Shown here: in pieces, positions 3,701-32,520 of the stretch | Layout: the number at the start of each line of letters is the position of its first letter | Numbering within the stretch: position 1 is the first letter of the stretch | NCBI GenBank assembly: GCA_951804945.1 | Contig: OX638150.1 | Coordinates: 70,928,001-70,992,000 of the forward strand | DNA length: 64,000 nt | Direction: 5' to 3' | Source of the DNA: Podarcis cretensis | Lineage: Eukaryota | Notes under the pieces: generated by a model | What the model was told of the DNA's origin: nothing | The model's input: the letters and a program-made list of their open reading frames with translations, nothing else | Databases searched by the model: none | Position numbers and translations under genes: made by a program

Positions 3701-6700
3701 TCCACAGCACCCCATGGCTCCCCCACCCAAAGAATCCTGGGAACTGTGGCTTCCCCTCAAGCACCCTTCACCAACTACAGTTCCCAGGAGTCTTTGGGGG
3801 AAGCCATGTGCTTTAAATGCACTTTAAATGGATGGTGTGGATGTGACCAGAGTTTGATTTTTTATCATCACTAGAGTCACTCCCATGACATGAGACACAC
3901 AGCTCTGTCCTTACCTGGAAAGTAGACAAGAAGCTCTCAGACAGCCCATTGGTATAGGCATGCACAGGGACATGTGTGTTCAGTTCTGCAAGGCGGCACT
4001 GGGAGACCAGAGCTCGGTTTTGCCCCACGTCATTCTCCGACAGATAGAACTGCAGAGACACAGCAATGAGTGAGGATGGTGCGGGAGGATCGCATTGTGG
4101 AGCTGAGTGGATGACAATGGATTTCACCAGTGCTTTTTTTTTCTGGAGGGTACGCATACCCCTAAATGTTTTGTGAATCTTTGTACTTTTGTCCATTTAC
4201 TGTATTTATTTCCCCCCGATTTGAACTATAAAACGGTTATTTTCTTGAGTCAAAATAAGAGTACCCCTAAATATATTTTTTTAGAAAAAAAGCACTGGAT
4301 TTTACTCTTTTACCCACTGCTCTACCACCAAATTCAGGACCCAGCTACATAGGATATTAGCAATGCCATTAGGAATCATGTTGCATGTTTAAAAAATATT
4401 CAATTCTGAGCACAGGTTTTGGAAATAGCAGCATGCAGGGAAGGCAGGTTTAAGTACACGTTGGAGGGGGGGAGTCACTCTTTAGTATCAATGGGAGCTT
4501 TGTTCCCTAATGGTAATTGACACAATCAGGGAGGGGGGTTTCAGAGAGATTATGGCTGGAGAGAAGGCTTAAACCTCCCCTTTCCATATTCTGTGATCTA
4601 TGAAAAAAATGCCCCTCACCACACATTGTGTGTTGCTGTTGTTTTAAAAAAACGCCACCACAAACCGCATTATCAATGTCACACGCAGTTAGGCCCTCAG
4701 TACTACATTGGCTTAGAGCAGACTCCGAATTTGGCTTCCAGCTCCATTCACAGACTCCATCCATCATCAGATATATGCTTTAAAAAGGGAGTGTGCCTAT
4801 TTCTTCATCAGCATAGGGCGGGTTGCAATTCATTATGTGATTGCACCAGAAAACAGGGTGCAGAAAAGAGCATTGTGAGAATATCAGCTTTTATTGACGG
4901 TTTTGTTACTAAAAAAACCCAAGCATCTTGTCCTAATTGTTGCAAGCATAGGCTTAAAACTGTGAGAGCAATGCTTAGTGAAATCTCAGGAGTCCCGAGA
5001 GAAACTTGTCAGGGATTCCAGTGGCCAAGGGGCAGGACTTCAGCACCTTGCATTGCCGCTAGCTTTTCCCATATCTTCAATGAATAATGCAAAAATGTGC
5101 TTATTTATTCAGATCATTAATTCCAGTATGTTCGGGCTCAGTATTTCAATACTTTTAGCTTAGGATAGGTATGTTGTTAAACCAACATTGCAAACATACT
5201 GCTCCAGTCTTTGAAGCCAAATATACTGAAGGAGACATTGAGAACATTGGGGAAGGGCTGTAGCTCATTGGTAGGGCATCTGCCTTCCATGCAGAAGGTC
5301 CCAGGTTCAAACCCCGGCATCTCCAGGTAGTACTGGGAAAGACTTCAGTACAGAAACCCTGAAGAGCAGCTGCCAGTCAGTGCGGCCAATAATAAACTAG
5401 ATGGGCCAATGGTCTGAGTCAGTATAAGGCAGCTTGCTGTGTTGCTTGTGAGAACCAGGGTACCAGAAGGTGGAGTTTTTAAATTAATTTCAAAACAAGC
5501 TGTTGTGAAATTCATAGCCTAATGTAGCAGTGTTTCCAGTTCTGACTGCTTTTAATAATAGCAGCAACTGACTCACCAGACTTCCCAAATTATGCAACCT
5601 TGTTTGAATCTCATGACTAGATTATGCTGGAAGCCATGGAACTACCAATTGTTTTTTTTTTTTGGTGGGGGGCATCTAATTGTAGTTATTATTACAGTGG
5701 GCTATAGACTTGGATCAGTCAAGAGTTCAGGTGACTTATGATTTAATATAGAGTGTTGGGACATATAGGGCAAATGAAGCAAAATTTGCTGTATAAGTGA
5801 TAGATTTTAGCCTTTGTCACGACAGGATATTGATTAATTTATTTGGACTAATAGTATGCTCTGCCTAGAGTTCTCACAGGGTTCTGGGTTTCAGAATAAA
5901 ATTATATGAAAACAATATAGGATTGACAAATACATGCGAATAGCTTGGCACAAAATCACTAGTGTCAACAATAAGGTCACCACAGATACCCAATGTGAGC
6001 TCTAGAAAGACTTGTTAACAAACACGTCATACACAAAAACTTATCAAATAATGGAAAATGTATGCAATCTATATTTTCATACCTTGACACTATATATATA
6101 TATATATATATATCCTTGGCATAGAATCTTGGGCTCCTTTTACTAGGTCCTAATTTGGAAATTAGTGTTGCAATCCTATAGACTTACGCAGGAAGATGGG
6201 GAGCTTGCTTCTGACTTGGCATGTATAGGATGTTGCCTCAGAGAGGCACTGCTGCAAATATATATTAAGGAAGTGGGAGGGATGGCCCAGAGGAATGCAA
6301 CAATGATAGAAAAAAGCCATAGGGTATGATAACAGTGCCAACGAGGGAAGAGGACTTTGTGCCACATTTCCTTGTTTGCTAGGCAAAGCCTCTAACATGT
6401 TCAATCCTACACATGTAAACTCAGAACACCATTGAGCAGATATAGGATTTCACCCTGGGCTGCATACCTGTGAAGAAAGGTCACTCCACTGAGTCTCACT
6501 CTGGTCATGGACAGTGACAGATTTCACTCCTGCAAGGATGACGTTCTTGGCAATCTCCACCCCCAGGCCCTTCATTCCAGAGACCAGCACAGCTGCTCCC
6601 ACCATCTTCTGCATGGCCTCATAGCCCAGAACATATCTGTGGGGAAAGCACAGCTCTGTGTTTGAAATATGGTGAGTTATGAAGCCCTGGACAGTAGCAT

Positions 6701-8614: not shown

Positions 8615-9877
8615 TCTGCTCCTGCCCATCAGAAACAAAAAGCTAAGGCGTCTGTTGAGTAAATTCCTTTCTGCTTCCACAGCCAGAAGCATCATGCCTC
8701 TGAATACCAGTTGTTGGGAATTGCAAGACAAGCCATTGGCCCATCTATTCCAGCATCCTGTTCTCAAACTAGCCAAACAGATTTTCGTGGGTAGCCTGCA
8801 AGCAGGACCCAAACACAACAACACTCTCCCACCTGCAATTCCCAACAAATGGCACTCAGAGGCATACAGTGGAGATAAAACGTTGCCCTCATGTGTGTGA
8901 GCAGGTGTACAGTATGTGTGTGCATTGGACAGTGCAATGTTATGCATGTCTACTCAGAAGGAATAATTTCAAGGTAAATGGAACTGATATTTTATGCTGT
9001 GAACTGCCTTGACATCTTCGGATGAAGGGAGGTATACAAATTTAATAAATTAAATAAATAAATAAATAAATAACCACAGCGGCCTGAACGTAGCCGCAGA
9101 ATTGATGTGTGAAACCCAACTTTCTGTCTGCCGCTGCCACATCTTAGCTTAGCCCAAACCTGACCAGGTAACACGAAGTTGGCCCCAAGAAACCAAACAG
9201 AGAAGGGAGGCATCCTAGTGTGTAAGCCCCATGCAATGCAAAGCATGAGAAAGGCTGCTTTTTCTGGGTTCTTCCAGATCTGCAATCCCCCAGTGCCCAC
9301 AAGAGGCACTGCAGCAGAACACCACAGAATTCATACAGTATTTCTTTTTCACCTTAAAATAAATGCTCATTAACTTGGTTCTTAGTAGCAGCCATGGGCA
9401 TAGCCAAAATTCTGGCTACGCCCATGGTAGCCACTAGATGGTCTATAGCTCAAAAGTGGGAGCATCTTCATGGTTTATACCTTCAACCATGATATGAAAA
9501 CATATGGAATACCGTAATCACCAAGACGATAACTCATAAACTTTGCCTTATGAAAAGTGAAGAACCTGTGGAACATTTCTATGCTACATCATTTCTTATG
9601 TTTCAGGTAACAACCTACTCCTTTCCCATACCATGGAGAGAAATATGATCTTCCTGATTAAATACAGAAATGCAATTATACTTACCTGCATAACATAGAC
9701 ATCTCAGAATCCCAAGAGTTATCTAGTCCAACCCCCTGCGATGCAGGAATCTCAACAGCTTACCTTTTATTCCACGTTGTGTTATTGCTTGTAAGGATAA
9801 AATGCGATATTGTTCACTTGCAGCACCACCCCGAAAGAAAATTAATGTTCTTTTCCAAGGGGAAATCAAAGCCTCAC

Positions 9878-29900: not shown

Positions 29901-30812
29901 GACAAGAAACAATATGAATTAGCAGAATGATTGAATCATCTCATAACTGAGATTCCTGCATTGCAGGGGGCTGGACTGGATGACTCTTGCATCCCTTCCA
30001 ATTCTATGATTTATGTGCAATACCAACAGAAATGCAGTGGATGCTCGGGTTGTGAACGTGATCCGTGCAGGAGGCACTTCTGCGCATGCGCCAAAACCCG
30101 GAAGTAACCTGTTCTGGTACTTCCAGGTTCGGCGCAGTGCGCAACCCGAAAACACGCAACCGGGAGTGTCTGTAACCCGAGGTATGACTGCACTTACCTG
30201 ATGTCTGGAGAGAGAGAAGTAATCCTGAGAGCCTTCTTCTGTGTGAGGGTTGGGCATCAAGCAGTAATTCTGCAGACAAGTAACCCACTTGGGAGGACTT
30301 TCGTTCCCACCATCTGCAGGGTTTCGGCGCTGCACCCGTAGAGTCAGAAAAGCTGTGTAATAGTTCTTGAATACTATTTCCTGCAACTGAGGATAGCAAT
30401 ATGAGGGGAGAACTGTCATGGATTCCTCCTTTTCTTGCTCAGAAACATTACTGGAACCCTTGGAGCAGGTCACTGCTGGAATATCTAAATTACAGCTTGG
30501 AGCAAAGTAGAGACACTTGCCTAGGGTAACCAAGTGAGTTAACAAAGGTGAGTTTTGAAGCAGGTACTTCCTGGTTCACCATCATAGTTTCTTTATCAGC
30601 TTTACAGCTAAAATGAGAGATTTCAAACATAAGATCTGACAATTCCAAGCCCCACACACTTGGTTTTCTCCCATACTTACATCAATGGTCTGTGAGTGTG
30701 GAAGCACAACATCAATCACCAGAACACCAGGACGGCCTTGCTCAGTCCTCATGTCTCCCACTTGCAGCGAGACTGGGCTCTTTAAAATGCAGGGAACAGG
30801 CTCATGAGCCAT
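26987..30812 (-). CDS. NICN1: Nicolin-1 (tubulin polyglutamylase complex subunit), about 217 aa
   Basis: Exons 30812-30681 (an upstream in-frame ATG is at 30821), 30386-30198, 28818-28705, 27865-27794, 27650-27546, 27028-26987, all phase 0. Motifs include GRPGVLVID, LQEIVFKNYYTAFL, LRQPSPVWLHFTIEELQ, RIGRFD and YDLNLLSYT*. Confidence 0.95.
30035..30190. mobile_element. Tc1/mariner (Tigger-like) MITE
   Basis: Imperfect TIRs cagtggatgctcgggtt / aacccgaggtatgactg. CpG-rich. Confidence 0.6.
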
Positions 30813-30907
30813 GGTCCCCATGCTGGAAAAGAGCAGTGGACTCCATTAAGCAGCACATAAATATTACAATTTCCACCTCCCTACACTGAAACTCGGGAAC
30901 CTGCCCC

Positions 30908-30939
<32 letters not shown>

Positions 30940-30955
30940 GTAGTAGTAGTAGTAA
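30908..30955. repeat. (ATT)n(AGT)n compound microsatellite
   Basis: Visible tandem trinucleotide repeats. Confidence 0.9.
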
Positions 30956-31181
30956 ATAAATTGAATAGTAAAGCGCAGGGCAGCACACACACCAGCAACA
31001 AAACATCCATTCAGAATTCCAATACAAATGCAGACTACTAATGACTATAACATGTATATTTGGGGGATCATATTCCACCAACAAAGCAAGTTCTGCAGAT
31101 CACCCTGTAGCATGATAGCTTTGTTTCACGTATCTGATACTGCCTGCTGTGAAAGGCCATGGTCCAATAAAACCAAGAAGG

Positions 31182-31213
31182 ATACTTACCTGGCAGGGGA
31201 GACACCTTGATCA
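31182..31213 (+). pseudogene. RNU1: 3'-truncated U1 snRNA retropseudogene (U1 nt 1-32) with 17-bp TSD
   Basis: ATACTTACCTGGCAGGGGAGACACCTTGATCA matches the U1 5' end (30/32 against the human sequence as recalled). It is flanked by the direct repeat caataaaaccaagaagg at 31165-31181 and 31212-31228. The last 2 nt are shared with the TSD. Confidence 0.93.
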
Positions 31214-31479
31214 ATAAAACCAAGAAGGTACAATCCTATGCATGCTTACTTGGAAGTAAGCCACATCACATTCGGGGGTGAGGGGCACACTTCTGATTAA
31301 AGACATATGGGATCAAGCTCCTCCAAGGTTTTACATACTATTTTTTTTTTTTTTAAGTAAACCAAACATTTTAGCAATAAAAACGTAGCAATAATATAAT
31401 GATGGCCACACAGGCTTCCTTACTGTCAATTAAGCAGCTCGGTTTTTTATTTAGCAAAGCTGGAGCGTCCCTTAAGAAG

Positions 31480-32520
31480 AGAAACACAGACGCACTCACC
31501 CCACTCCCGGCTAAGCCCAAGACAAGCAACGCTAAGCCCCCTCCCCGAGAGTAACGGACCCGTCGTCACCCGCGGAGGGCGGCGGGGACGCGCCCAGGTC
31601 CAAGCCCTTCCTTTGCCCACCCAGCGCATCTCTGGGACTCGCCTGCAGCCGCTCCCTGCTCGCTCTCGCGCCTCCTCCCTCTTCCTCCTGTCAACCTCCT
31701 GCTTTAAAGCGGGTAGAGGAGCCGACAGAGAAGAGCGAAGCAGTTCCCCCCACTACGGCTTCCCCTCACCCGCTTAGCAAGCGCAAAGCCACTACAAACA
31801 TGGCAGCACCGCACGTCACGAACGTTGCCACTACTACGGAGAACGAGGAGGCGGAAGCCTTTGTTGCTAGGGCTCGCTTGGCGTCGCGCACGCGTGACGA
31901 CACCGCGCCCCGCCCGCCTAAAGGCGGTGCTAACGGGAAAGAGGGGCGGGGCTTTAACTTGAAGCCGCCTTCCTAGAGACGTGTCTGCTGCGGCGCCTTG
32001 GCAATGACGCAAGCGGTCGCATTTCTAACCTGTCTGCGTTGCTGCGGCAACGCGATAGCTAGCGTTCTGATTGGCCGACAAGCACCGCCGCTCTCGGCCG
32101 CCATTGGATGCTTAGGATGCTTGGACACGTCCGGCGCACTGATTGGTCGACCGGTTCGGAAGGGAGCTTTACGGAGATGTCGTGGTGGCTGGTTCTGTCG
32201 GCTGTAGGCGGAGTGGCACCTCCGGGCCGGGTCAGGTGAGTTACGCGGTGCTGAGTGCGGAGGGGTGACGTTGGCTACGGCTACGGGCTTCTGGGTCCGG
32301 TCCTGAAGAGCACCGAGGGCTCCAGCAGCGGCGGCGGCGGCCGGGCTCTGAGCTCGAGGGGCTGCCGGCAAGTCCTGCTTGGCAGGGGGTGGACGCGGGG
32401 AGGTTGGGAGACCATCGAGGGGGACCTGGCAGGCAGCGGGGCCGGTAGAGGCCTTGGGGGCGGCGTGGGGTCTGACGCTTCGCCCTTTCCTCCGCCCTCT
32501 TTCAGGCAAGGATGAAGGCG
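31480..32520. promoter_or_regulatory. CpG-island bidirectional promoter, NICN1 (-) / GMPPB (+)
   Basis: CpG-dense, with a GC box (about 31943) and CCAAT boxes (gattgg at about 32069 and 32141). Candidate non-coding exon donors are at 31500 (minus, G|GTGAGT) and 32235 (plus, CAG|GTGAGT). The GMPPB acceptor is at 32506. Confidence 0.8.

What the first reader, a model, noticed from the sequence alone, without database searches (positions are those of the whole stretch)
31182..31292. The U1 retrocopy writes a perfect 5' splice site into the NICN1 5'-UTR intron (candidate exonisation)
The insert is antisense to NICN1, so the NICN1 pre-mRNA reads ...tctcccctgcCAG|GTAAGTAT. This is the exact complement of the U1 5' end and therefore the strongest possible donor (exon end 31190), and complementarity to U1 extends over about 30 nt. 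A plausible acceptor (tctttaatcag|A) lies at 31292, which would define a 103-nt cryptic 5'-UTR exon containing short uORFs (ATG-TGA; ATG TGG CTT ACT TCC AAG TAA). The site could instead act as an alternative donor for exon 1, or as an acceptor (tctcccctgccag|G). If used, the spliceosome's own RNA would have seeded a new splice site or U1 decoy about 370 nt upstream of the first coding exon. Usage is inference only.
Basis: partly seen in the sequence, partly recalled or inferred. Interest (0 to 1): 0.7.

Follow-up and report, generated by a model that had tools for sequence, protein, structure and literature searches.

The report
Tailless U1 retrocopy in NICN1 intron
A 30-letter scrap of the splicing RNA U1, pasted backwards into the first intron of a lizard's NICN1 gene, spells a perfect splice signal, but it is one of dozens of such scraps in this genome and is likely a mostly silent passenger.

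Summary
The sequence observation holds. A 30-32 nt U1 5' fragment (31182-31211/13), identical to this genome's clustered U1 genes, sits between perfect 17-nt direct repeats, antisense to NICN1, and gives an 11-of-11 complement of the U1 5' end (exon end 31190). They join 31643 straight to 30822 and show no use of the 31292 acceptor. The insert lies in a transcribed intron, but whether those relatives carry it is unknown and no RNA of the carrier covered the locus, so use of the new donor is untested. Most likely a passenger with minor or no use; a minor exon, a longer exon 1 or a recursive site remain open. A U1 sponge is unlikely.

The parts
31165..31181 (+). left copy of 17-nt target-site duplication
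   Evidence: exact direct repeat
31182..31213 (+). U1 snRNA nt 1-32 (30 nt between the repeats plus 2 nt shared with the right repeat); 3'-truncated in loop I, no A tail
   Evidence: 0 mismatches to C1-cluster U1 genes, 1-2 to the other variants; loop I = nt 28-37
31212..31228 (+). right copy of target-site duplication
31182..31192 (-). perfect 5' splice-site motif (exon end would be 31190), directly preceded by a pyrimidine run and AG; use untested
   Evidence: 11 of 11 Watson-Crick pairs to U1 nt 1-11, duplex -14.0 kcal/mol
31190..31292 (-). hypothetical 103-nt 5'-UTR exon with three uORFs (1, 6, 10 codons); no transcript support
   Evidence: no cover or joint at 31292
31229..31266 (.). fragment of a dispersed repeat next to the insert
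   Evidence: many unrelated contigs end here; 8 other genome matches of 36-70 nt
31643..31883 (-). NICN1 exon 1 (5' UTR), ending at a GC donor at 31643; the 5' end is approximate
   Evidence: contigs of X1, X2, X8; annotated protein P0009 maps to the same donor
30823..31642 (-). NICN1 intron 1, 820 nt, GC-AG; hosts the insert
30681..30822 (-). NICN1 exon 2, first coding exon; ATG begins at its second base

Best explanation
A 3'-truncated copy of U1 snRNA, likely written in by a LINE reverse transcriptase priming in U1 loop I, sits between 17-nt direct repeats in NICN1 intron 1 and reads on the gene's strand as a perfect 5' splice-site motif that is likely used in few or no transcripts. Shown: anatomy, source gene variant, class membership, position inside an 820-nt GC-AG intron of relatives. 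Inferred: LINE origin, youth, and that the carrier's main mRNA still joins 31643 to 30822. The motif is an automatic by-product of any antisense U1 5' fragment, not a sign of selection. Any use would leave the 220-aa protein unchanged and only add uORFs.
For: Insert anatomy. 33 of 48 exact U1-head matches are 31-39 nt stubs; 18 of the 33 have a target-site duplication of 10 nt or more at or overlapping the 3' end, against 0 of 191 mismatched-flank controls; 29 of 33 end in loop I. 3 of 3 contigs that cover exon 1 (organisms A and B, studies P1-P3) join 31643 to 30822, passing over two older GT sites in the same intron: 31500 (duplex -11.5) and 31250 (9 pairs), against -7.8 and 7 pairs for the GC donor in use. 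So donor strength alone does not decide use here. A perfect 11-mer is expected about 550-780 times in the genome by composition alone. No orientation bias seen among 36 other copies, at low power.
Against: No RNA from a known carrier was seen: X22 laid nothing, and A and B may lack the insert. The native donor is weak and non-canonical; exon 1 already has alternative donors in lacertid annotations. The new site is not buried in structure (mean unpaired 0.42-0.63). The 31292 acceptor looks as good as the true exon-2 acceptor (11 vs 12 pyrimidines of 18) and gives a normal exon length. Donor-creating changes are the commonest cause of pseudoexons (210 of 359, PMC8819188). A 5' UTR tolerates new exons, so persistence of the insert says little.
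Confidence: 0.6

Rival explanations
1. The new donor defines a regularly included 103-nt 5'-UTR exon (31643->31292, 31190->30822) whose three uORFs would damp NICN1 translation.
For: 11/11 donor; acceptor with a branch-point-like motif at -21, 11 of 18 pyrimidines and 23 nt free of AG; PMC8819188 passages; extended U1 pairing is agreed to raise recognition (PMC9311317 passages).
Against: No contig covers 31267-31642 or joins at 31292 in 3 informative runs, even with the older 31250 donor available; that same donor lies inside the exon and would compete; PMC9311317 notes that more recognition need not mean more use.
Confidence: 0.14
2. The site outcompetes the weak GC donor as an alternative 5' splice site, extending exon 1 by 453 nt to about 690 nt with 8 upstream ATGs, which would lower translation.
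For: Donor strength -14.0 vs -7.8; exon 1 has several donors in annotated relatives; GC-AG first introns are prone to alternative splicing (PMC7242645 abstract).
Against: The nearer GT site at 31500 is passed over in relatives; all 8 upstream ATGs precede the main start, which should be costly.
Confidence: 0.12
3. The antisense fragment works as a recursive splice site: exon 1 splices to the AG at 31189, which regenerates an 11/11 donor because exon 1 also ends in CAG, and a second step joins exon 2; the mRNA is unchanged.
For: Branch-point-like motifs at -22 and -26, 11 of 18 pyrimidines, AG directly before the donor; recursive sites occur over a range of intron sizes (PMC10156609 section 9).
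Against: That section reports a preference for conventional splicing in introns under 1,000 nt; another AG lies 14 nt upstream; no lariat data.
Confidence: 0.1
4. The 30-nt complement acts as a U1 decoy or sponge, binding U1 far beyond the normal 11 nt.
For: 32-nt perfect complementarity to the clustered U1 variant.
Against: U1 nt 12-27 are paired in helix H and stem I; one intron of one gene is vastly outnumbered by U1 (recalled, no call).
Confidence: 0.03

Closest known systems
Tailless retropseudogenes (Noll et al. 2015, PMC5322556; Kojima 2010, PMC2912911; U1/U2 copies with direct repeats first reported by Van Arsdell 1981, as cited in PMC4494074)
   Same: 5'-complete, 3'-truncated small-RNA copy without A tail, perfect target-site duplication, end point in a single-stranded loop, 3' end overlapping the target site. 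Already reported in the green anole.
   Different: Here U1 in a lacertid-type genome. The passages I read analyse 5S rRNA and U2 across vertebrates and do not discuss splice sites made by antisense U1 copies. The target site fits the published consensus only loosely.
Exonisation of antisense retroelements and donor-created pseudoexons (Alu exonisation, search listing; PMC8819188 passages)
   Same: An intronic antisense insert supplies a splice signal that may pair with a latent partner site.
   Different: Those cases have transcript evidence; this one has none. The donor is complete at insertion and comes from the spliceosome's own RNA.
Recursive splice sites (PMC10156609)
   Same: Juxtaposed acceptor and donor inside an intron.
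   Different: Short young intron site, no conservation and no lariat shown.
SINEU (PMC4494074 passages)
   Same: U1-derived 5' sequence spread by non-LTR machinery.
   Different: SINEU have shared 3' bodies and poly(A) tails; this insert has neither.

Membership tests
Tailless retropseudogene | starts at the 5' end of the source RNA | tested here: met
   begins at U1 nt 1, 0 mismatches over 32 nt
Tailless retropseudogene | 3'-truncated, no oligo(A) tail | tested here: met
   the right repeat follows at once
Tailless retropseudogene | flanking target-site duplication of 8-35 nt | tested here: met
   17 nt, exact; control 0 of 191
Tailless retropseudogene | end point in a loop, with target-site complementarity of 2-18 nt | tested here: met
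   ends at nt 30-32 in loop I (nt 28-37), 2-nt overlap
Tailless retropseudogene | target consensus TT/WAAAAWW | tested here: inconclusive
   A-rich but only a partial match, read by eye against PMC5322556
Tailless retropseudogene | made by L1 proteins | not testable with these tools
   inferred from the literature; lizards have several LINE systems
Exonised retroelement | donor and acceptor motifs at exon-like distance | tested here: met
   103 nt
Exonised retroelement | spliced transcripts include the segment | tested here: inconclusive
   none in 3 informative runs of relatives of unknown insert status; the run of the best DNA holder's species laid nothing
Recursive splice site | acceptor directly followed by donor | tested here: met
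Recursive splice site | intermediate junctions or lariats | not testable with these tools
   only assembled contigs were offered
SINEU | shared 3' body and poly(A) tail | tested here: not met
   nothing between the U1 fragment and the right repeat; definition

The most novel reading that the evidence does not exclude
Every antisense U1 tailless copy is a ready-made splice cassette (branch-point-like motif, pyrimidine run, AG, perfect donor), and this one, dropped into a weak GC-AG first intron, has taken over part of NICN1 5'-UTR splicing in its carriers, as a new exon, a longer exon 1 or a recursive site. The spliceosome's own RNA would then be a recurring source of new splice sites.
Probability: 0.25. 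Interest if true: 0.55.

Novelty: new member of a known kind. Interest (0 to 1): 0.25.

Why it matters
As it stands it is one more tailless retropseudogene, useful as a presence/absence marker among lacertids. If the donor is used, it would be a clean natural experiment: a maximal, U1-derived donor competing with a weak GC donor in a short first intron, and a route to new splice sites for which four searches of the open library returned no paper. The same test could be run at once on human U1 copies, where junction data are deep.

Tried and rejected
Rfam at gathering score finds no U1 in the window; at E<=10 U1 scores only 13 bits: the fragment is too short, so identity rests on direct comparison. 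Run search: no RNA holder on record was listed; 4 of the 23 listed runs were laid, on 31229-32300 only; X22, the run with the species label of the best DNA holder, laid nothing, which is no evidence. The lack of cover over 31267-31642 is likewise weak, as contigs drop rare forms and a filter leaves some out. Contigs on 31229-31266 are other copies of a repeat, not the proposed exon. Orientation test by T/A skew in 10-kb flanks of 36 copies (32 other short, 4 medium; the 11 full-length left out): mean +0.009, sd 0.042, p 0.20; 8 sense-like vs 5 antisense-like at threshold 0.03, p 0.58; the skew marked direction in 3 of 4 window genes: inconclusive. No MaxEntScan or SpliceAI was available; U1 pairing counts and duplex energies (no pseudouridine) were used instead, and 2 of 10 acceptor rows failed on a wrong offset and 1 was left blank. 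The branch-point motif used is a recalled consensus. Earlier findings: none returned. Freund 2005 was not held and is known only through PMC9311317. No U1 list was found under the terms tried in the supplements of PMC5322556 (part 1 of 10 of file 2 read, file 1 not searched), so U1 rows there may have been missed. The NICN1 paper search listed nothing on its 5' UTR. Rejected: donor at 31500 as the main exon-1 end; SINEU; functional U1 gene (30 of 164 nt).

Full report
Observation. On the + strand, 30 nt (31182-31211) lie between two exact 17-nt direct repeats, 31165-31181 and 31212-31228. Compared with U1 genes of the window's own genome, they match the variant clustered on contig C1 with no mismatch over 32 nt, the last two letters being shared with the right repeat, and differ from the other two variants at 1-2 places. 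On the minus strand the fragment gives the exact 11-nt complement of the U1 5' end, exon end 31190, directly behind a pyrimidine run and an AG. The host gene is NICN1: the 47 aa of the first coding exon are 100% identical to a protein named nicolin-1 of Lacerta agilis, so the genome (1.51 Gb, 51 contigs) is likely a lacertid lizard.

What the insert is. The first 20 nt of U1 occur exactly 48 times in the genome, the reversed control 0 times (exact matches only, so a lower bound). All 48 were examined: 11 are full length, 4 run 49-148 nt and 33 are stubs of 31-39 nt. 18 of the 33 have a target-site duplication of at least 10 nt at or overlapping the U1 3' end; mismatched flanks gave 0 of 191. 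29 of the 33 end at nt 31-37, within loop I (nt 28-37 of the Rfam structure). These are the marks of tailless retropseudogenes: 5'-complete, cut in a loop, no A tail, target-site complementarity (PMC5322556, passages and parts 3-4 of 5, which also report the class in the green anole; PMC2912911 passages; PMC4494074 passages, citing U1 copies with direct repeats from 1981). LINE origin is inferred from these papers. Perfect identity of insert and repeats suggests a young event, but 47 letters cannot date it against relatives that differ by 4-5 letters in about 200.

The real gene model. Four of 23 listed runs were laid as contigs on 31229-32300. They are only guessed to be RNA, but they join across introns, here and at GMPPB. 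In X1, X2 and X8 (organisms A and B, three studies) one contig each covers exon 1 from 31643/31646 up to 31823-31883, and its loose end is NICN1 exon 2 up to 30822. The junction is 31643->30822, an 820-nt GC-AG intron. An annotated Podarcis lilfordi protein maps to the same donor, with a further small intron, and a Lacerta agilis isoform maps to a donor at 31770. Nothing was laid on 31267-31642 and no joint or loose end appeared at 31292 or 31500. Contigs on 31229-31266 are other copies of a repeat. Limits: contigs drop rare isoforms, A and B may lack the insert, X22 (species label of the best DNA holder) laid nothing, and no reads were examined across the insert itself.

How strong is the site? 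It pairs with U1 nt 1-11 at 11 of 11 positions (-14.0 kcal/mol) against 7 plus one G-U (-7.8) for the GC donor in use; the unused sites at 31500 and 31250 score -11.5 and 9 pairs. It is not sequestered in local folds. The 31292 acceptor is ordinary but as good as the true exon-2 acceptor. Pairing beyond nt 11 should matter little, as U1 nt 12-27 are paired within U1. A review states that extended pairing raises recognition but that reports on use conflict (PMC9311317 passages). Perfect 11-mers are not rare: 550-780 are expected in the genome from window composition, and a second one without U1 extension lies at 9684-9694 on the minus strand.

Mechanism and rivals. Most likely (0.6) the insert is a passenger whose donor motif is a by-product, and the main mRNA still skips it, as better-looking GT sites in this intron are already skipped in relatives. 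Against this, the native donor is weak, exon 1 is already variable, GC-AG first introns are prone to alternative splicing (PMC7242645 abstract) and new donors are the commonest cause of pseudoexons (PMC8819188 passages). Hence a 103-nt exon (0.14), a 453-nt extension of exon 1 (0.12) or recursive use (0.10) stay open. In the first two cases all upstream ATGs stop before the main start (3 new ones in the exon, 8 in all in the extended form), so only translation, not the protein, would change. In the third, exon 1's own CAG would rebuild the perfect donor and the mRNA would be unchanged; short introns prefer conventional splicing (PMC10156609 section 9). A test for loss of antisense copies by flank skew was inconclusive.

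Novelty. The element is a new member of a known class. The idea that antisense U1 stubs seed splice sites was not found in four searches of the open library (most subscription papers are not held), and the supplements of PMC5322556 were only partly read. Without a junction from a carrier it remains a motif. Interest 0.25; 0.55 if use is shown.

Noticed in passing
window 31643-31641 (minus): NICN1 intron 1 is a GC-AG intron whose GC donor is used although GT sites lie at 31500 and 31250.
   Followed up: yes
window 31801-31643 (minus): An upstream ATG at 31801 is an 11-codon uORF in the main isoform but is in frame with NICN1 in annotated relatives' isoforms using the donor at 31770 (to 30822, or via an 82-nt intron to 31687); similar N-terminal extensions are annotated in Pogona and Rhineura.
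   Followed up: partly
G000, loci L020-L060: At least 33 U1 tailless stubs; 21 carry the letters of the C1-cluster variant and 12 those of a second variant, for which only two dispersed full-length copies were among the 48 exact matches.
   Followed up: partly
window 9684-9694 (minus): A second perfect 11-nt donor motif with no further U1 likeness; host transcript not identified.
   Followed up: no
window 31880-32150: NICN1 and GMPPB are head to head, with about 270 nt between the 5' ends of relatives' contigs. The GMPPB, TCTA (about 11260, +) and AMT (about 24100, -) names are read from the sequence and recalled, not tested.
   Followed up: no
window 5254-5325 (+): tRNA-like match (52 bits) with several broken pairs, possibly a pseudogene or SINE head.
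   Followed up: no
P0003: A gecko protein annotation fuses nicolin-1 with aminomethyltransferase domains; the two genes are neighbours on the same strand here, so read-through or an annotation merge is possible.
   Followed up: no
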